Source of the DNA: Candidatus Nanoarchaeia archaeon
Lineage (GTDB): Archaea > Nanobdellota > Nanobdellia > SCGC-AAA011-G17 > JACPNG01
DNA length: 64,000 nt
NCBI GenBank assembly: GCA_028714375.1
Contig: JAQTMK010000001.1
Span: 243,636-307,635 of the forward strand
Direction: 5' to 3'
The notes under the pieces are model-generated. The model was not told the origin of the DNA. It searched no databases and worked only from the letters and a program-made list of their open reading frames with translations. The translations under genes and the position numbers were made by a program. This document shows positions 1,611-62,047 of the stretch, in pieces. Position 1 is the stretch's first letter. Each line of letters starts with the position of its first letter.

Positions 1611-1731
1611 GGTGGACAGCGAAACAGGCTTCCCGTTATATAACAGTATCACCTGAAACGTGGGTTTGTTTAACTATCCGAGTTCGAGATGGGATCGGGT
1701 GGGACCAAACCGCCATGGCCGTCCGAGTTTT
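1611..1731 (-). rRNA. rrf: 5S ribosomal RNA (stand-alone copy)
   Basis: GC-rich island in AT-rich DNA. Minus-strand sequence ggacggccatggcggtttggtcccacccgatcccatctcgaactcggatagttaaac... matches the universal 5S loop B/C signature (CCCGAUCCCAU.CGAACUCGG.AGUUAA). Ends are approximate (within ~5 nt). Confidence 0.8.
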
Positions 1732-6473: not shown

Positions 6474-7018
6474 TATAATTCAGAGATTAGTTCGTTAGTT
6501 TCATTAAGAACTTTAACTAAAATCTCTTCTCCTTCTTTATTACTAAACAGGATCCGATCTTCTTTATAGATTGCGTCTTCTTTGGAGAGTTTTATTAAAA
6601 TTCTAATAGAGTCATTTAATGTGACAAAACATTCATTTTCTATTTTATTTGAATCATATATATTTTTTAAAGAATCAATAATTAATCTAATAAAAACTAA
6701 ATAATCTCTATCTAAAATTCTTTTTGCAGCTATTGGGTTTTGATGAGCCATTTTTGCATTTGTCAAGTTATCTTTTAGATTTAAACAAATGTCTTTTGTA
6801 GTGATAGCCGCACCAAAAGTGATTATTTGATCCATCATTTTTTGATCAAATTTATTAAAGAAAACATTTCCCATTTCTTCAAAATCTTTAGCTAATTTAT
6901 CAAAACATTCGATCACTTGAGGTGAAATCTCTTTTTGTTCAATACTTTTTTTTAGTAATTCATCTATATGAAAAATTAAATTTTCACTTTGATCGAGATT
7001 ACATGTTTTATGATCCAT
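6473..7018 (-). CDS. Hypothetical protein (181 aa), upstream member of a coupled pair
   Basis: Long ORF; translationally coupled to the 5634-6473 gene. Confidence 0.55.
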   Translation of the reverse strand: MDHKTCNLDQSENLIFHIDELLKKSIEQKEISPQVIECFDKLAKDFEEMGNVFFNKFDQKMMDQIITFGAAITTKDICLNLKDNLTNAKMAHQNPIAAKRILDRDYLVFIRLIIDSLKNIYDSNKIENECFVTLNDSIRILIKLSKEDAIYKEDRILFSNKEGEEILVKVLNETNELISEL

Positions 7019-53662: not shown

Positions 53663-54925
53663 TTAGTAATATTGCCTTGGTTCTTCTGCTTTGCCTCTTC
53701 CAACTAAAACAGCAACACCTAAAATTATTAGGATTACTACCAAAATAACAAATCCAATTACCAAATAGTTTTGGGTTGAACTTGTTTCTTGTCCACTAAC
53801 TTCCAAGTTTAAAGTATTTTCACTTATCAAGCTGTTTTCCTTTAATACTTTTACACTGAAGCTGTGTAATCCTAGTGTAGCTGAATCTTTAGCTTTAAGG
53901 TAAACATTTACAGTAGCAGCGCCTTTTCCAGGAACTGATACAAATGCTGGGTCTACTCTTGAAGTTGCAAATAAGTCTGCACCGCTAACTTCTACAGAAT
54001 AAATTCCTGCTTCATCATTTAGATTTGCAATTGTTACTCTGTATAATGTTTCTTCTCCAACAGCAGCAACTTTTGAAGTTGAATCAAAGTTAACTAAAGG
54101 TTTTTGTTCAACAACTGTTGCTTCTTCTTTGTTAATGTAGATTGTTCTTGTGGTTGAAACAATTTCATTACCTCTGCTGTATTCTACATCAACCTTTAAT
54201 GTGTAGACTCCTGCTGCAGCATTTTCTGGCAATCTTAAGTATAACTCATCACTTGAAGCTGAATCTTCTTCGTCTTCATTGTCTTCATCTAAGTCAGAAT
54301 CTTCATCAGCTGCTAATTCATCAATGTAGTCTCTTACTGAAATTCCCAATTCTGGGATTGTAGCAGTAACTTTAATATCTTCTTCCTTTTTCTGTCCAAG
54401 GTTTTCAACTCTTACTGTAACAAATAAAGGATTTCCTGCTTCTGCATTTGAATCAGGTCTTATAATAACATCCTGAATCTTTAATGAATGTCTTTTTGGT
54501 TGTACTCTTAGTTCAAGTGGGAATGCTAATTCTGGTGCTGAACCATCTTTACCATAAGCTTCAACATGTAATGTGTAATCTTCTGCGCCTTCCATATCAT
54601 CAGGCAACTCTACATTTAATGTTTTTTTGTATGTAACGCCTGGCTCTACCAAGAATGGACTTGTTGTTTCTTCAACATCAGCGTATTCGTATCCACCAAT
54701 CCATGCTTTGACTTTAACATCATCATAGGATGTGGCTCCACCAAGTACGAAAACTTCCACTTCTAAGGTATTGTCTGTTTCTGCATAAACGACTGTTCCT
54801 AAAGCAGCCTCAATGCCATCTATTTTAACTTTGTTAATCTCATAATCAACCGCAGCTGAAACCAAAGTTGTAGCAAATAGGGCAAATACTAAGCTTGCTA
54901 GGATAAAATTTAGTTTTTTCATCAT
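53663..54925 (-). CDS. Cell-surface protein (signal peptide, Ig-like/CARDB-like repeats, acidic linker, C-terminal TM anchor)
   Basis: MMKKLNFILASLVFALFATTLVSA signal peptide; DEDSDLDEDNEDEEDSASSDE acidic stretch; C-terminal LVIGFVILVVILIILGVAVLV plus a basic tail. Confidence 0.6.
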   Translation of the reverse strand: MMKKLNFILASLVFALFATTLVSAAVDYEINKVKIDGIEAALGTVVYAETDNTLEVEVFVLGGATSYDDVKVKAWIGGYEYADVEETTSPFLVEPGVTYKKTLNVELPDDMEGAEDYTLHVEAYGKDGSAPELAFPLELRVQPKRHSLKIQDVIIRPDSNAEAGNPLFVTVRVENLGQKKEEDIKVTATIPELGISVRDYIDELAADEDSDLDEDNEDEEDSASSDELYLRLPENAAAGVYTLKVDVEYSRGNEIVSTTRTIYINKEEATVVEQKPLVNFDSTSKVAAVGEETLYRVTIANLNDEAGIYSVEVSGADLFATSRVDPAFVSVPGKGAATVNVYLKAKDSATLGLHSFSVKVLKENSLISENTLNLEVSGQETSSTQNYLVIGFVILVVILIILGVAVLVGRGKAEEPRQYY

Positions 54926-57220: not shown

Positions 57221-57316
57221 TGGGGATGCCAGGATTTGAACCTGGATCAATCGGTCTGGAGCTTTGGCTTAATTTTGGATTAATCGACCACTCTAGCCGA
57301 GTTGAGCTACACCCCC
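57221..57316 (-). tRNA. Intron-containing tRNA (96 nt); isotype unresolved, possibly Trp(CCA) with a non-canonical ~22-nt intron
   Basis: Minus-strand GGGGGTG/CATCCCC-A acceptor, D arm GCTC..GAGT, T arm CCAGGTTCAAATCCTGG; about 22 extra nt in the anticodon region. A CTCCA / TCCAAAA motif suggests CCA, but the cloverleaf cannot be closed unambiguously by eye. Confidence 0.55.
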
Positions 57317-58342
57317 GAGCTCATCTTTAGTTAAAACAAAAATCCTATTTCCATCTATATAAAAGTTGCTTTTTTTGCCTTTAATCCTACAAACCAAAAT
57401 TCCAGCATTACAATCATCTAAAGAATTAATATACCCATTTAGTTGTTTTATATCTGAAAGAGAGATTGGTTTAGATTGGTAATCCTTTATCTCAACGAAA
57501 TACTTAGTATTCTCAATAATTAGTAGGGCATCAGCAATCCCAAGTTTAGTTTTAAAGCCGGGAATGACCAGTCCAACATTCTTTAAAATTGTAATTATTT
57601 CTTTTTCAAAATCCAAAGCCCTCTTTTTTATATCCATGTTAGAAGCTCCATAAAGAGTTTTTCTTTCAATTGGGTACTCAACTCCTGCTCTTTTGTAAGC
57701 TTCAGTTATACCACCAGTAAAAATTTCTTGTACATGAGTTTCACATTTTTTGTTAATTTCATACTGAGTTGGATTTGAGTTATTTTTTATATATTCTAAA
57801 ACTTGATTTTGTTTTTTTATTAGTCGCTTTTTACCTCCAGATATCTGGTCTAAATTTGCTTTGTTATATAATTCTCCCATATCCTTAAAATAAGAATAAA
57901 TATTTAATCCAATCTGATTTTTAATTTCTTTAGAAGTTAAAAGAGGATTTGTTTGAATTAAATTTACAATTTTTTTCGTATTAATATTCCGATAATCAAT
58001 ACATTTAATTCCTGCAACTTTATATGCCTTACTTATTGTTCCAAATATTTTTGGGATATCAATCCTCAGCTCTTTTTTAATTGAGATTGTATTAGCGCAA
58101 GCATTAGAACGAATAAACTCAATAACTTCATTGACCATTTGTTCTCTTGTTCTTTTTTGTAATGATTTTGAGAACTGAATGCCTGCCTTAATATATGCAG
58201 ATTTCATTCCATTTTTGGGATATAATCTTTCAACTTTAATTTTAGTATCCTGTCTAATCCCCCTATATGTAGCGTTAGGATTTTTTCTTAAATAATTAAT
58301 TAACTCTTCTTCTTTTTTATTAAAATTTTTGTATAGATTCAC
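57293..58342 (-). CDS. Triple HTH-like repeat protein with a C-terminal PD-(D/E)xK (Hjc/Mrr-like) nuclease domain
   Basis: Three ~50-aa repeats ending in ..AYK.AG.. (ISKAYKVAGIK, MGELYNKANL, ITEAYKRAGVE), then C-terminal FEKEIITILKNVGLVIPGFKTKLGIADALLIIENTKYFVEIKD resembling the Hjc/restriction-endonuclease core (E...D...E.K). The 3' end overlaps the tRNA gene. Confidence 0.55.
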   Translation of the reverse strand: MNLYKNFNKKEEELINYLRKNPNATYRGIRQDTKIKVERLYPKNGMKSAYIKAGIQFSKSLQKRTREQMVNEVIEFIRSNACANTISIKKELRIDIPKIFGTISKAYKVAGIKCIDYRNINTKKIVNLIQTNPLLTSKEIKNQIGLNIYSYFKDMGELYNKANLDQISGGKKRLIKKQNQVLEYIKNNSNPTQYEINKKCETHVQEIFTGGITEAYKRAGVEYPIERKTLYGASNMDIKKRALDFEKEIITILKNVGLVIPGFKTKLGIADALLIIENTKYFVEIKDYQSKPISLSDIKQLNGYINSLDDCNAGILVCRIKGKKSNFYIDGNRIFVLTKDELGGVAQLG

Positions 58343-58402
58343 ACACTATTAAAGACTTAAGAGTTTATATTTTCTACTCCGACCAACTCGGAAATTATTC
58401 AA

Positions 58403-59104
58403 CTAACGGTAGTATTTCATGATATCTTCAATCTCGTCTTCAGAAATAGCACATCCTCTTAATTTTAATCCCCATAATAAACCCTCTAGAAGATTTTTTT
58501 TAAGGTCTATCTCAACCTTAGCCCCGTTCTGTTTAAGATAATCATCAAGAACTCCAATCTCAAAACCAACAGACATTAACTCAGTAGATCTTAGAATATT
58601 AATTTTTTTAAATTCATCTTTGAAAAAATCAAGATTATCTTTGTTTACCTCAATCTTGCTGTGTAATTTTCTTTCAAATAATTTAACCAAATCCTTAGGA
58701 TCTTCAACCAATAACCTTAAAGTTCTCTCATCAACAATCAAAGCATCTGAATTAAGGTATTCAGCCAAGGCCAAACATTCCATATCATTCTGACTTACCA
58801 AAGTTATCCAATTTCCTCTTGCCCTAATTAAGTTATTTGCTCTGTCAGCTATCTGTTTTGCTCTTTCTTTAACTCTTGGATTAGAATAAATCTCCAAAAT
58901 CCCTTTATTGACTTCAGACAAAACCTGAATCGCTTCTAATTTATATTTTTTAGAATCAAGTGGTTTAATTATAAGTTCTTCTTTAATGCCTTCAGGAATA
59001 TAAAACTGTCCTTTGAATTTTTCTTTTAGTTTTGAAAGACTCCAGAGTAAATCATTTGTTACTATGCTTATTATTGCACTTGAGTCAAAAACAAGCGATT
59101 TCAT
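58403..59104 (-). CDS. PIN-domain nuclease with a C-terminal extension
   Basis: LVFDSSAIISI (first Asp), ECLALAEYLNSDALIVDERTLRLL (third/fourth acidic motifs) match the PIN/VapC pattern; 233 aa; start overlaps the upstream gene by 4 nt. Confidence 0.55.
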   Translation of the reverse strand: MKSLVFDSSAIISIVTNDLLWSLSKLKEKFKGQFYIPEGIKEELIIKPLDSKKYKLEAIQVLSEVNKGILEIYSNPRVKERAKQIADRANNLIRARGNWITLVSQNDMECLALAEYLNSDALIVDERTLRLLVEDPKDLVKLFERKLHSKIEVNKDNLDFFKDEFKKINILRSTELMSVGFEIGVLDDYLKQNGAKVEIDLKKNLLEGLLWGLKLRGCAISEDEIEDIMKYYR

Positions 59105-59670
59105 ACTTCAAATATTCTCCTTGCTATTTCAAGTCTCTCTTTTGTTTTTTTTGTAACAAGGGGTTCAGCATCAGTAATGTCTATGTTTCCAAGATAGCTC
59201 ATCAGGTCCCAGGTGGATATTCCTAGAATTTGTGCAGCTCTTGAAGCAGATACTCCATGCTCATAAATTTTAGAACCTTTCTTGACTCTTGCACTGTTAA
59301 TCACAGAAATAATATATTTACCCAACTGGCTTTCAATCTTGGACATGCTTTTAAGTATCAGGCTTATTGAATTGTTGTATTTTATAACATCATCTCTTTC
59401 AAGACCTTCTTTTGCCTTTCCAAGATATAAAACCAAATCCTTGCTAAATCTTTCCCACTTCTTACTGTGAGTTAATTCAGGATTGTTGAAAATTTTGTAC
59501 AAAGAATAAACAACAATGGTGATACTTATTGAAGAATCATCCTGGCTTGTTGTGGCATTATGGATAGTGTGATCAGAAATTTCCTTTAAAGCTGTAACAT
59601 CGTTCTTTGAAATTGCTACTAAGGCTTCATTAATAAGATTTATTATATCCTTTTTTATTAGGTCATTCAT
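59101..59670 (-). CDS. HTH-containing protein upstream of the PIN gene (antitoxin/regulator candidate)
   Basis: 189 aa; C-terminal GVSASRAAQILGISTWDLMSYLG helix-turn-helix; its start lies 1 nt after the lgt stop. Confidence 0.5.
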   Translation of the reverse strand: MNDLIKKDIINLINEALVAISKNDVTALKEISDHTIHNATTSQDDSSISITIVVYSLYKIFNNPELTHSKKWERFSKDLVLYLGKAKEGLERDDVIKYNNSISLILKSMSKIESQLGKYIISVINSARVKKGSKIYEHGVSASRAAQILGISTWDLMSYLGNIDITDAEPLVTKKTKERLEIARRIFEV

Positions 59671-59671
59671 T

Positions 59672-60418
59672 TTATCTCTTTTTTATTAAAAGGTATATAG
59701 ATATTAGGAACAAAGGAATATTTAAAAGTTGCCCTAAAGTTAAACCACCAATCAGTCCTATCTGAACATCTGGTTCTCTGTAAAACTCTAGGATAAATCT
59801 CAAAACAGAATACAAGAACAAAAACAATCCAAAATTAAACCCGTCTTTGTGCTTATTTTTCCTTGTTGAAAATAAAACAATAAAAATAAACAGATTTTTT
59901 AATGATTCATAGATCTGTGATGGATGTCTGTATCCCTCTGCGTTTGGAAACTTAACAGCCCATGAGACATTGGTTACTCTTCCGTATAATTCTCCGTTTA
60001 TGAAATTACCAATCCTTCCTAAACACAACCCTAAAGCCAAGGGTATTACAGAAATGTCTGCTAGTTTCCAGAAATTTATTTTTTTAATTCTGGAATAAAT
60101 AAGGCCAGCAACTATTGCTCCAGCTAATCCCCCATGGAAAGATAACCCCCCTTTCCAAAGCATGATTATTTCTTCTGGATTTAATATGAAATAATTTAGA
60201 TTGTAAAACAAAACATAAAATATTCTTGCTCCAATTATTGCTCCTATAATCCCATAAAATAAAAAGTCCTCTACGTTTAGGTTAAGTTCCTTTTCCCTTG
60301 AAAGTTTTTTTAGTATAAAATAAGCCAAGATTAATGAAATAACATAGATTAATCCGTAATATCTTATCTCTAATCCAAAGACTGTCAGTAAGGTTGGATT
60401 TAAATTATGGATAAACAT
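59672..60418 (-). CDS. lgt: Prolipoprotein diacylglyceryl transferase
   Basis: 248 aa polytopic membrane protein with the Lgt signature LCLGRIGNFINGELYGR (G-R-x-x-N-F-x-N-x-E-x-x-G). Confidence 0.75.
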   Translation of the reverse strand: MFIHNLNPTLLTVFGLEIRYYGLIYVISLILAYFILKKLSREKELNLNVEDFLFYGIIGAIIGARIFYVLFYNLNYFILNPEEIIMLWKGGLSFHGGLAGAIVAGLIYSRIKKINFWKLADISVIPLALGLCLGRIGNFINGELYGRVTNVSWAVKFPNAEGYRHPSQIYESLKNLFIFIVLFSTRKNKHKDGFNFGLFLFLYSVLRFILEFYREPDVQIGLIGGLTLGQLLNIPLFLISIYLLIKKR

Positions 60419-61094: not shown

Positions 61095-61664
61095 TTAAGG
61101 CTCTAATAATTTTTTTAATTTCAGGTGAACTTTGATAACTACTTCTTTAAAATCACTAACTAACTCCTGAATATTATCATATTCCACAAATTTTTTTTGT
61201 ATTGAACTAAACTTTACACCCCCCTTACATAGCTGAACCATTGCTTCATCATAATCAAGATTGTGGTGAAAGGCATTTCTTATAGCTCCAATTACGTTCA
61301 AATCATTAAATAAATCGTTATCAATTAGATTAATCTCAATATTCTTAGTTGGATGATTAATATGAATCATCTTTAAAAGAATTATTTTCCCAAAATAATC
61401 AATATATCTAGTTTTTAAAAAATCAGCAAAATCTGAATATTCCAGAAGAGTGGACTTTCCAGTTAAAGTCTTAACCAATAATTCATCAATTTTAAGTTCT
61501 ATATGGAGATGACCATTAAGAAATACATTTCTAGGATTACTTTGTTTTAAGGCTTCATAAAGATTATATCTCTTAGAAGTGTAACGACCAATTTTTATTT
61601 TTTTGAGTCCATCATAGTAATCGTGGGTGACCTCACCAACATCTATTTTGTTTAATCCTTTCAT
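61095..61664 (-). CDS. HEPN-domain protein
   Basis: 189 aa; C-terminal GAIRNAFHHNLDY contains the HEPN Rx4HH motif in a helical context. Confidence 0.5.
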   Translation of the reverse strand: MKGLNKIDVGEVTHDYYDGLKKIKIGRYTSKRYNLYEALKQSNPRNVFLNGHLHIELKIDELLVKTLTGKSTLLEYSDFADFLKTRYIDYFGKIILLKMIHINHPTKNIEINLIDNDLFNDLNVIGAIRNAFHHNLDYDEAMVQLCKGGVKFSSIQKKFVEYDNIQELVSDFKEVVIKVHLKLKKLLEP

Positions 61665-61669
61665 CTTAC

Positions 61670-62047
61670 CTAAACCACTTTAATCTCAGGCTCATCTGGA
61701 GTCTGTTTTGAATCTGGTTGTGGGAAGTTAATCAAAATTCCTTTTTTAATGCCTAAAACTTCCATATACTTTTTTAGCTGGACTTCTTCTTTATTACTTA
61801 ATTTAGTTCCAACAGCTTTAAGCTCAATAATCATCTTTCCGTCTTTGCCTTCATTAATAATTAAATCTGGTATTCCCTGACCTACATTATACTTTTTGTA
61901 GAAAATGGGAACTATCCTTTGGTTTTCATAAGGTATCTTGTTTAATCTTAAACCAACTTCCATAGCCTTTTGATAAATACATTCTGTGTGACCTGAGCCT
62001 AATTCATTAAACACATCTTTTGCTATTTCTTTTATCTTGTTTATCAT
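61670..62047 (-). CDS. GxxExxY-family protein (PD-(D/E)xK-like)
   Basis: 125 aa; GHTECIYQKA matches the GxxExxY signature; followed by a D...E.K-like segment (IPDLIINEGKDGKMIIELKAVG). Lies 5 nt upstream of the HEPN gene. Confidence 0.5.
   Translation of the reverse strand: MINKIKEIAKDVFNELGSGHTECIYQKAMEVGLRLNKIPYENQRIVPIFYKKYNVGQGIPDLIINEGKDGKMIIELKAVGTKLSNKEEVQLKKYMEVLGIKKGILINFPQPDSKQTPDEPEIKVV

What the first reader, a model, noticed from the sequence alone, without database searches (positions are those of the whole stretch)
57221..59670. tRNA-adjacent nuclease cluster: triple-HTH plus Hjc/Mrr-like PD-(D/E)xK protein, a PIN nuclease and an HTH partner
Three co-directional genes lie immediately next to, and overlap, an intron-containing tRNA. 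(i) A 189-aa protein with a C-terminal HTH overlaps by 4 nt (ii) a 233-aa PIN-domain protein with a non-canonical C-terminal extension, i.e. a VapB/VapC-like arrangement but with both partners much larger than classic VapBC. (iii) 60 nt downstream, a 349-aa protein combines three ~50-aa HTH-like repeats with a C-terminal Hjc/Mrr-type PD-(D/E)xK nuclease core (..ADALLIIEN..VEIKD). Its 3' end overlaps the tRNA 5' end, the typical footprint of integrated elements. I do not recognise a triple-HTH + REase-fold fusion paired with a PIN/HTH operon as a named system. It could be a novel toxin-antitoxin or anti-phage module, or a tRNA/rRNA-processing complex.
Basis: partly seen in the sequence, partly recalled or inferred. 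Interest (0 to 1): 0.7.

Follow-up and report, generated by a model that had tools for sequence, protein, structure and literature searches.

The report
Endonuclease gene cassette inserted in tRNA-Trp
The three genes are not one system: two form a conserved toxin-antitoxin-like pair of DPANN archaea, while the third is a small selfish nuclease gene that has inserted into the neighbouring tRNA-Trp gene and arrives together with a new tRNA intron, which bears on how archaeal tRNA genes gain introns.

Summary
The three ORFs, the 4-nt and 60-nt spacings, the PD-(D/E)xK motif and an intron-bearing tRNA overlapped by the third ORF are all present. The HTH repeats number four, not three.

The "trio system" reading does not hold. 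Genes A (189 aa) and B (233 aa) are an enlarged UPF0175-HTH / COG2405-type VapC-PIN pair. They are adjacent in 76 of 80 Woesearchaeota/Nanoarchaeota loci, inside a conserved housekeeping neighbourhood.

Gene C (four winged-HTH modules plus an Mrr/FokI/Hjc-like nuclease) is in only 1 of those 80 loci. The closest relatives read Lgt-A-B-tRNA-Trp, with no C and no intron.

In every one of about 21 C-family loci, in at least six genomic contexts and mostly without A-B, the C ORF runs into a tRNA-Trp(CCA) gene. That tRNA almost always carries non-canonical introns in its 5' half. A decayed copy of the tRNA 5' end often lies upstream of C.

The window's 22-nt insert is a covarying bulge-helix-bulge intron at position 30/31.

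Best reading: C is the endonuclease of a one-gene, tRNA-Trp-specific mobile cassette that rebuilds the tRNA with an intron. The mechanism is inferred, not shown. One analogous case was published in 2012 (Caldiarchaeum).

The parts
59101..59670 (-). Gene A, 189 aa. An N-terminal helical domain plus a C-terminal UPF0175-like HTH (about res 135-170). It is the antitoxin-like partner of B.
   Evidence: ORF. A lies directly upstream of B in 76/80 loci. Alignment A7 shows the conserved motif KKGSxxYEHGxSxGRAAELLGISxWELMxYxG. UPF0175 matches 9/25 members, best 2.1e-5.
58403..59104 (-). Gene B, 233 aa. A VapC-type PIN nuclease of the COG2405/DUF3368 lineage with a helical C-terminal extension of about 70 aa.
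58347..58384 (-). A decayed remnant of the original tRNA-Trp 5' end (GGTCGGAGTAGAAAA...), followed by an A/T-rich promoter-like stretch upstream of C.
   Evidence: Alignment with L001 pairs the window's B-C spacer with L001's spacer plus tRNA nt 1-15. Clearer cognate remnants occur in L081, L082, L087, L088 and L093 (p <= 0.005) and in L102. In the window itself the signal is weak (p about 0.05).
57293..58342 (-). Gene C, 349 aa. Four winged-HTH-like repeats (about res 6-58, 64-114, 115-166, 167-224) plus a C-terminal PD-(D/E)xK nuclease (about res 236-348; D271, E284, K286). It has no stop codon of its own and uses TAG inside the tRNA D-arm.
57221..57316 (-). tRNA-Trp(CCA) gene, 96 nt. The anticodon is at 57257..57259.
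   Evidence: Rfam 46.9 bits. It aligns with the intronless tRNA-Trp of L001-L004. After in-silico splicing ARAGORN calls tRNA-Trp(cca).
57263..57284 (-). A 22-nt bulge-helix-bulge intron (AUUAAUCCAAAAUUAAGCCAAA) at tRNA position 30/31.
   Evidence: It is an insertion relative to L001-L004. The minimum-free-energy fold shows the two 3-nt bulges. The 4-bp central helix and the inner helix are 100% paired, with compensatory changes across six homologous introns, and 0 of 500 shuffles reach the observed score.

Best explanation
The interval holds two unrelated units.

(1) A-B. This is an enlarged, chromosomally fixed version of the predicted UPF0175(COG2886)-COG2405 PIN toxin-antitoxin pair. B is a VapC-like Mg-dependent RNase with an intact acidic site. 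A is its HTH partner. By analogy, A binds and restrains B and represses the operon. This pair is inherited vertically in Woesearchaeota/Nanoarchaeota.

(2) C is the only gene of a roughly 1.1-kb selfish cassette that has inserted into the tRNA-Trp gene. The cassette's 3' end supplies a new copy of the tRNA 5' part, here with a 22-nt BHB intron at 30/31, so a functional tRNA-Trp is rebuilt downstream. The host's original 5' end is left upstream of C, where it decays.

Inferred mechanism. The four wHTH modules read the tRNA-Trp gene. The Mrr/FokI-like domain cuts alleles that lack the cassette. Repair or recombination against a cassette-bearing copy then installs C plus the intron-bearing 5' half. 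The intron does one or both of two things: it destroys the nuclease's own target, or it breaks the homology between the two direct repeats so that C is not deleted.

Shown: the anatomy, the strict C/tRNA-Trp linkage, absence from close relatives, the BHB intron, and the nuclease fold with intact catalytic residues.

Inferred: DNA cleavage, target specificity, the mobility mechanism and the role of the intron.
For: A-B:
- The pair is adjacent in 76/80 loci.
- UPF0175 matches and the VapC fold.
- UPF0175 is reported exclusively next to COG2405 PINs (PMC5499597; PMC2701414).
- The pair sits in a conserved neighbourhood of OapB/OapC/GTPase genes and a surface protein.

C cassette:
- The relatives L001-L004 have B followed 40-60 nt later by an intronless tRNA-Trp, with no C.
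- In all C-family loci with sequence available, the C ORF ends inside, or no more than 20 nt before, a tRNA-Trp(CCA) gene on the same strand. These are the window, L081-L094 and L096-L102. L028 is the exception: only a tRNA 3' portion and a CUCCAAA anticodon-loop-like stretch lie at the end of its C-like ORF, and no complete tRNA-Trp could be reconstructed.
- These loci fall into at least six unrelated flanking contexts.
- 5'-half introns occur in 14/18 C-linked against 1/19 C-less tRNA-Trp genes, Fisher p = 6.7e-6.
- Upstream tRNA 5'-end remnants are present.
- The window's tRNA differs from the identical L001/L002 tRNAs at 6/32 positions upstream of the intron and at 1/42 downstream, p = 0.038.
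- D...ExK is invariant in all 16 family members examined.
- The fold is that of a restriction endonuclease.
- The insertion contains no integrase or any other gene.
- A published case has the same architecture for tRNA-Thr in Caldiarchaeum (PMC3293823).
Against: - No biochemical or population evidence for cleavage or mobility was available.
- C proteins are as diverged between genomes (42-62% identity) as B proteins are. No recent transfer is visible, so old vertical inheritance with many losses is not excluded.
- L097 has an intact C-like nuclease next to an intronless tRNA-Trp, and L091/L092/L102 have only the canonical intron. A 5'-half intron is therefore not obligatory.
- Remnants are individually significant in only 5 of 15 loci. 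In the window the signal is marginal.
- No C relatives were found in viral or plasmid collections.
- The exact junction, about nt 15 to 33 of the tRNA, is not resolved.
- The loci are phylogenetically non-independent, so the p-values are optimistic.
- For A-B, toxin or antitoxin activity is untested, and the fixed syntenic distribution is atypical for TA modules.
Confidence: 0.6

Rival explanations
1. C is passive cargo, or the last survivor, of a larger integrative plasmid or virus. That element would have entered tRNA-Trp by a tyrosine integrase acting on an attP that contained an intron (the pNOB8-type model of Sugahara et al. 2012). C itself plays no part in mobility.
For: The architecture matches the published tRNA-Thr case: a 5' tRNA fragment, an inserted ORF on the same strand next to the rebuilt tRNA, and a new intron. 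Direct-repeat-like remnants are present.
Against: In the window the insertion is C alone, with intact synteny on both sides. About 21 loci in at least six contexts retain exactly the same single gene with invariant catalytic residues, and none shows an integrase. Random decay of large elements would not always leave the same gene.
Confidence: 0.15
2. C is a host-beneficial guard of the tRNA-Trp locus. It acts as a restriction-like nuclease that cuts intronless tRNA-Trp-like sequences, such as the attP sites of integrating elements. The host gene is protected by its intron, which would play the role that methylation plays in restriction-modification.
For: C co-occurs with intron-bearing tRNA-Trp. 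It has an Mrr/FokI-like nuclease with a DNA-reading HTH array. The published idea that tRNA introns block integration fits this reading (PMC4090602).
Against: It does not explain why C must sit inside the tRNA gene with a displaced 5' remnant and no stop codon of its own. PADLOC gives no match. C is very rare, at 1 of 80 A-B loci, and L097 lacks the intron.
Confidence: 0.12
3. A, B and C form one three-gene toxin-antitoxin, defence or RNA-processing module.
For: The three genes are co-directional and tightly spaced in the window. C lies within 2 kb downstream of A-B in L081, L082, L084, L085 and L028.
Against: A-B lacks C in 79/80 loci, including the nearest relatives. C lacks A-B in L083, L086-L094 and L096-L102. 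In L081 and L082 other genes lie between B and C. The shared factor is tRNA-Trp.
Confidence: 0.04
4. C acts on RNA or on expression of the locus. For example, it could process or regulate pre-tRNA-Trp or its intron. Its position would then reflect co-transcription rather than mobility.
For: C and the tRNA overlap on one strand, so a joint transcript is plausible. EndA-type splicing nucleases are distant PD-(D/E)xK relatives (own knowledge, not tested here).
Against: C has the metal-dependent D...ExK DNA-nuclease signature and Mrr_cat, FokI and Hjc neighbours, not EndA. Close relatives manage tRNA-Trp without C. The introns are ordinary BHB substrates.
Confidence: 0.05

Closest known systems
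Caldiarchaeum subterraneum tRNA-Thr(GGU) insertion (Sugahara et al. 2012, PLoS One, PMC3293823)
   Same: A 5' tRNA fragment lies upstream, an inserted ORF sits on the same strand immediately before the rebuilt tRNA, and the rebuilt tRNA carries an extra non-canonical intron that belongs to the insertion. Intron-free alleles exist in relatives.
   Different: That report is a single locus of 1.87 kb with a repeated 545-bp region and an uncharacterised 813-bp ORF. It was interpreted as pNOB8-type integrase-mediated. Here there is a family of about 20 loci in DPANN, always at tRNA-Trp, with one defined wHTH-array plus PD-(D/E)xK protein and no integrase. Whether ORF 'b' is homologous to C could not be tested.
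I-Ssp6803I and other PD-(D/E)xK homing endonucleases; free-standing homing endonucleases with 'collaborative' introns
   Same: All are restriction-fold nucleases encoded at the conserved gene they are presumed to target. Their distribution is sporadic, endonuclease-free alleles exist, and an intron interrupts the target. I-Ssp6803I resembles Hjc (PMC3384342), as does the nuclease domain of C. I-Ssp6803I targets a tRNA anticodon region (own knowledge).
   Different: C is not inside a self-splicing intron. The host gene is rescued by a duplicated 5' part rather than by splicing out the endonuclease gene. The intron is a protein-spliced BHB mini-intron. DNA recognition would come from a wHTH array, not from a tetramer of nuclease domains. 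Cleavage is untested.
UPF0175 (COG2886) - COG2405/DUF3368 PIN predicted toxin-antitoxin pairs (Makarova 2009; Matelska 2017)
   Same: An HTH partner gene overlaps a downstream VapC-group PIN gene. UPF0175 similarity sits in A's C-terminus, and B has the VapC fold with an acidic active site.
   Different: Both proteins are much larger (189 and 233 aa). A has an added N-terminal helical domain, and B has an insertion and a C-terminal extension. The pair is apparently fixed in a conserved chromosomal neighbourhood across at least 76 species-level genomes rather than patchy and mobile.
FokI / Type IIS and Mrr-type restriction endonucleases
   Different: There is no methyltransferase partner, no defence-island context and no PADLOC hit. 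The recognition part is four tandem wHTH repeats, and the gene is locked to a tRNA gene.

Membership tests
VapBC-like UPF0175/COG2405 toxin-antitoxin pair (A-B) | The toxin has a PIN fold with conserved acidic active-site residues. | tested here: met
VapBC-like UPF0175/COG2405 toxin-antitoxin pair (A-B) | A UPF0175-type HTH partner is encoded immediately upstream on the same strand. | tested here: met
   The overlap is 4 nt. A lies upstream of B in 76/80 loci. UPF0175 matches 9/25 A homologues; the window copy itself reaches only E = 0.08.
VapBC-like UPF0175/COG2405 toxin-antitoxin pair (A-B) | Small proteins with a patchy, mobile, often multi-copy distribution. | tested here: not met
   The proteins are 189 and 233 aa, of uniform length, and sit in a syntenic core neighbourhood. 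Copy number per genome was not measured.
VapBC-like UPF0175/COG2405 toxin-antitoxin pair (A-B) | The toxin arrests growth and is neutralised by the antitoxin. | not testable with these tools
   Needs expression assays.
Homing endonuclease gene (C) | The nuclease domain belongs to a class known to include homing endonucleases, with catalytic residues intact. | tested here: met
   PD-(D/E)xK fold. D...ExK is invariant in 16 members. PD-(D/E)xK is a recognised homing-endonuclease class (PMC3384342).
Homing endonuclease gene (C) | The gene is encoded in or next to a conserved target gene, is sporadic among relatives, and empty alleles exist. | tested here: met
   C is always at tRNA-Trp. It is absent from L001-L004 and from 79/80 A-B loci.
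Homing endonuclease gene (C) | The gene is embedded in a self-splicing intron or an intein. | tested here: not met
   C lies upstream of a complete tRNA, and the 22-nt intron does not contain it. At best C is a free-standing type.
Homing endonuclease gene (C) | The enzyme cleaves the endonuclease-free allele at a long specific site and is copied into it. | not testable with these tools
   Needs cleavage assays and population data.
Archaeal integrase-type integrative element (SSV / pNOB8 type) | Encodes a tyrosine recombinase integrase. | tested here: not met
   The insertion holds only C. Pfam and NCBIfam show HTH and Mrr_cat and no integrase.
Archaeal integrase-type integrative element (SSV / pNOB8 type) | Flanked by direct repeats of part of a tRNA gene, with the tRNA reconstituted. 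| tested here: inconclusive
   A complete tRNA lies downstream. Upstream 5' remnants are clear in L081, L082, L087, L088, L093 and L102, but weak in the window and absent in some loci.
Archaeal bulge-helix-bulge tRNA intron | A 3-nt bulge, a 4-bp helix and a 3-nt bulge at the splice sites; removal gives a canonical tRNA. | tested here: met
   Fold. The helices are 100% paired, with 3 of 4 central pairs compensatory. The spliced sequences are called tRNA-Trp.
Archaeal bulge-helix-bulge tRNA intron | The intron is actually excised by EndA in vivo. | not testable with these tools
   Needs RNA data.
Known anti-phage defence systems | Match to a curated defence-protein model. | tested here: not met
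   PADLOC gave only sub-threshold PDC-S70 hits for A and B (E = 0.009 and 0.022) and none for C.

The most novel reading that the evidence does not exclude
C-family cassettes are vehicles that deposit non-canonical BHB introns into archaeal tRNA genes.

The proposed sequence is:
1. The nuclease targets tRNA-Trp.
2. The cassette installs itself together with an intron-bearing replacement 5' half.
3. Later recombination between the displaced 5' remnant and the new 5' half deletes the nuclease gene but leaves the intron behind.

The expected product is an 'orphan' intron such as the 30/31 intron of L044. This would give a concrete, enzyme-linked mechanism for tRNA intron gain, a process whose mechanism the reviews describe as unknown.
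Probability: 0.3. Interest if true: 0.85.

Novelty: new variant of a known kind. Interest (0 to 1): 0.62.

Why it matters
How archaeal tRNA genes acquire protein-spliced introns at non-canonical positions is an open question. [quoted passage not shown] The only mechanistic clue so far was a single Caldiarchaeum locus (PMC3293823).

Here a defined protein family is found only at tRNA-Trp genes, in at least six genomic contexts. It comes together with 5'-half introns and displaced tRNA 5' remnants, while sister genomes carry the empty, intron-free site.

That turns the question into an experiment: does this wHTH-array/PD-(D/E)xK protein cut intronless tRNA-Trp DNA and spare the intron-bearing allele?

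It would also add a new way for a selfish nuclease gene to avoid killing its target gene. Instead of hiding in a self-splicing intron, it carries a spare 5' half.

Separately, the A-B pair shows a toxin-antitoxin-type PIN module that has become a fixed core gene pair of a DPANN lineage.

Tried and rejected
- Direct Pfam, NCBIfam, PADLOC and PHROGs scans of the three window proteins gave only sub-threshold or generic HTH hits.
- Sequence and profile searches against PDB sequences found nothing useful for A, B or C.
- No C relatives were found in IMG/VR, PLSDB plasmids or INPHARED phages, so a viral or plasmid donor could not be shown.
- I compared C with B divergence to look for recent horizontal transfer. 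The result was inconclusive, because the identities are similar.
- I looked for the sequence of ORF 'b' of the Caldiarchaeum insertion to test homology with C. It is not in the supplements that are held.
- The afdb50 structure library was unavailable.
- Foldseek against the PDB found no full-length analogue of C.
- I considered that the 5' tRNA half plus the 3' half could enclose C as a giant intron, as ARAGORN proposed for L088. I rejected this because a complete, self-consistent tRNA-Trp lies downstream.
- Nucleotide-level intron maps for L093, L094, L096 and L028 were not resolved.
Full report
**Observation**

The minus strand of 57221..59670 carries three ORFs exactly as described:
- A: 59101..59670, 189 aa.
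- B: 58403..59104, 233 aa, overlapping A by 4 nt.
- C: 57293..58342, 349 aa, starting 60 nt after B.

ARAGORN in default mode sees no tRNA here. Rfam's tRNA model matches 57221..57316(-) at 46.9 bits, with a 27-nt unaligned insert in the anticodon arm. The last 24 nt of C, including its stop codon, lie inside the tRNA.

The host is a "Candidatus Nanoarchaeia" MAG. Identical A and B proteins are deposited as PHE43_01865 and PHE43_01860 on a 382-kb contig.

**Genes A and B**

B has more than 150 homologues of uniform length (about 225-238 aa, 40-80% identity) in Woesearchaeota/Nanoarchaeota assemblies. Most carry a precomputed DUF3368 (PF11848) hit. D7, E43, D125, E126 and E134 are invariant.

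A scan of species-representative genomes found 133 relatives. In the 80 loci kept, tblastn finds an A homologue immediately upstream of B in 76.

A's conserved C-terminal motif hits UPF0175 in 9 of 25 homologues, best 2.1e-5. [quoted passage not shown]

Unlike classic TA loci, this pair sits in a conserved neighbourhood. OapC-like, OapB-like and GTPase genes lie upstream in about 25 of 67 loci. A surface protein lies downstream in 24 of 72.

I therefore read A-B as an enlarged, fixed derivative of that TA family. Its activity is untested.

**Gene C is not part of that module**

Only 1 of the 80 A-B loci (L028) has a C-like gene.

The four nearest relatives are L001-L004, with B identity of 82, 72, 55 and 53%. 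They keep the order Lgt-A-B and then, 40-60 nt later, an intronless 74-76-nt tRNA-Trp(CCA). Downstream synteny continues. Relative to them, the window has two extra things: the C gene, and a 22-nt insert in the tRNA.

**C is tied to tRNA-Trp**

C has few relatives. The word-indexed search found 9. A full HMM scan of 1.84 billion cluster representatives found only 232 at E <= 1e-3.

I retrieved about 21 loci: L081-L088, L089-L098 and L099-L102. In every locus where sequence is available, the C ORF runs into, or stops within 20 nt of, a tRNA-Trp(CCA) gene on the same strand. L028 is the exception: only a tRNA 3' portion and a CUCCAAA anticodon-loop-like stretch lie at the end of its C-like ORF, and I could not reconstruct a complete tRNA-Trp. 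The ORFs generally have no stop of their own. The conserved C-terminal "GGV" is simply the translated acceptor stem.

Flanking genes fall into at least six unrelated groups. Most of these loci lack A-B. The occasional B...C proximity (L081, L082, L084, L085, L028) therefore reflects tRNA-Trp lying downstream of B in that clade, not a functional trio.

**The intron**

By alignment, the window's insert is AUUAAUCCAAAAUUAAGCCAAA, between tRNA positions 30 and 31. By hand, from the fold, it forms a canonical bulge-helix-bulge:
- central helix UGGU:GCCA;
- bulges CG|A and AA|G;
- inner helix UUAAU:AUUAA.

Homologous introns sit at the same position in L082, L083, L084, L086 and L089. They keep both helices 100% paired. 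Three of the four central pairs and several inner pairs change by compensation. None of 500 shuffles reaches the observed score. After in-silico splicing, ARAGORN calls all of them tRNA-Trp(cca).

Other C-linked tRNA-Trp genes carry inserts elsewhere in the 5' half:
- about 7/8 in L087;
- the D-loop in L088, L093 and L094;
- about 23/24 in L099;
- about 26/27 in L100 and L101.

L085 has its insert in the T-arm.

Counting resolved, non-redundant genes, 14 of 18 C-linked tRNA-Trp genes have a 5'-half intron. Only 1 of 19 C-less genes does (L044). Fisher p = 6.7e-6, with the caveat that lineages are not independent.

There are exceptions. L097 has no intron at all. L091, L092 and L102 have only the canonical 37/38 intron. 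All of them keep intact catalytic residues in C.

**Signs of insertion into the tRNA gene**

Upstream of C, 25-60 nt before its start, many loci carry a degenerate copy of the cognate tRNA's 5' end. Examples (remnant vs. functional tRNA):
- L082: GGGGATGTAGC vs. GGGGATATAGC.
- L088: a 35-nt 5' half reaching the anticodon loop.
- L087: a remnant that lacks the intron present in the functional copy.
- L102: GGGGGTGTAGTCTAACAAGGCGGTAC...

The similarity is individually significant (p <= 0.005) in L081, L082, L087, L088 and L093. A shared motif, AAAGGCTT(A/T)AAT, follows the remnant. It probably serves as BRE/TATA for C; this is inference.

In the window the remnant is weak. Alignment with L001 pairs the B-C spacer with L001's spacer plus tRNA nt 1-15.

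L001 and L002 have identical tRNA-Trp genes, although their B proteins are only 69% identical. The window's tRNA differs from them at 6 of 32 positions upstream of the intron but at 1 of 42 downstream (p = 0.038). This is what one expects if the 5' part was replaced.

**What C is**

The model (pLDDT 88) shows four three-helix modules and an alpha/beta nuclease domain. The repeats are mutually similar.

Across homologues, Pfam gives HTH_24 in 7 of 9, Mrr_cat in 4 of 9 and HTH_Tnp_Tc3_2 in 2 of 9. D271, E284 and K286 are invariant. PADLOC has no match.

**Interpretation**

The simplest account of all this is that C is the sole gene of a small element specific for tRNA-Trp genes.

The element carries, at its 3' end, a replacement 5' part of the tRNA, usually with an intron. 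The host's original 5' end is left upstream. This is the same anatomy that Sugahara et al. described once, for tRNA-Thr in Caldiarchaeum. There they proposed that a mobile element brought the intron (PMC3293823).

The differences here are that the pattern recurs across a protein family, the insertion contains no integrase, and the only protein is a DNA-reading nuclease. I therefore favour a homing-endonuclease-like mechanism: cleavage of empty alleles followed by recombinational repair. PD-(D/E)xK homing endonucleases are a recognised class (PMC3384342).

The intron may abolish the nuclease's own site, or may break the direct repeat that would otherwise delete C. The varied intron positions fit the second idea, or a long recognition site. 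None of this is demonstrated.

Recombination between the remnant and the new 5' half would remove C and leave an orphan intron. L044 looks like such a product. This is the most novel reading.

**Rivals and limits**

- C could be relic cargo of integrase-driven elements.
- C could be a host guard of the tRNA att site.
- C could act on RNA.
- The trio could still be one system. This last option is essentially excluded by the co-occurrence data.

Divergence of C between genomes is as deep as that of B, so no recent transfer is visible. No viral or plasmid copy was found.

**Verdict**

The trio interpretation is mostly wrong. The overlap with the tRNA is the interesting part.

Novelty: A-B is a new variant of a known predicted TA family. 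The C cassette is a new variant of tRNA-targeting mobile elements, with one published analogue.

Noticed in passing
window 59672..60418 (-): A bacterial-type prolipoprotein diacylglyceryl transferase (Lgt, PF01790, E = 7e-74) lies directly upstream of A in this DPANN archaeon. It is syntenic in L001, L002 and L004. This is an unusual enzyme for an archaeon.
   Followed up: no
window 61095..62047 (-): A GxxExxY/PDDEXK_3 nuclease-fold protein (125 aa, E = 3e-27) lies next to an unannotatable 189-aa ORF. It is a second small PD-(D/E)xK gene close to the finding but unrelated to C.
   Followed up: no
L044 about 6720..6870: This A-B locus has no C, yet its tRNA-Trp carries three inserts. One is a short 14-nt intron at 30/31 ending in AAGCCGAA, like the C-linked introns. 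It is a candidate 'orphan' intron left after loss of a cassette.
   Followed up: partly
L092 471..5884: The block protease-dCTP deaminase-tRNA-Val-tRNA-Trp is duplicated. One copy has C inserted between tRNA-Val and tRNA-Trp and the other has no C. Both tRNA-Trp copies have different canonical introns.
   Followed up: partly
L096 1150..1463 and L098 520..1500: The tRNA-Trp downstream of a C homologue is interrupted by at least three inserts. One is a long insert in the T-loop region, at least about 110 nt in L096 and several hundred nt in L098. Neither Rfam nor ARAGORN resolves it correctly.
   Followed up: no
L001-L080, upstream of the A-B pair: In about 25 of 67 loci, A-B follows a conserved set of three genes: a GTPase, OapB-like (PF09846) and OapC-like Zn-ribbon (PF09845). 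A 420-aa surface protein lies downstream in 24 of 72, which corresponds to window 53663..54925.
   Followed up: partly
L083 3238..4365, L089 2772..3911, L099 1833..2945: A class Ib aminoacyl-tRNA synthetase gene (PF00579, the TyrRS/TrpRS family) lies just upstream of the C-tRNA-Trp unit in several loci. I did not determine whether it is TrpRS.
   Followed up: no
L088, L091, L093, L102 (canonical tRNA-Trp introns): The canonical 37/38 introns contain (A)TGATGA near their 3' end. This may be a box C/D guide like the one in the Haloferax tRNA-Trp intron mentioned in PMC4090602.
   Followed up: no
window 1611..1726 (-): A 5S rRNA gene (Rfam 59.4 bits). The other four tRNAs in the window (Pro, Gly, Ser, Met) are intronless.
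   Followed up: no
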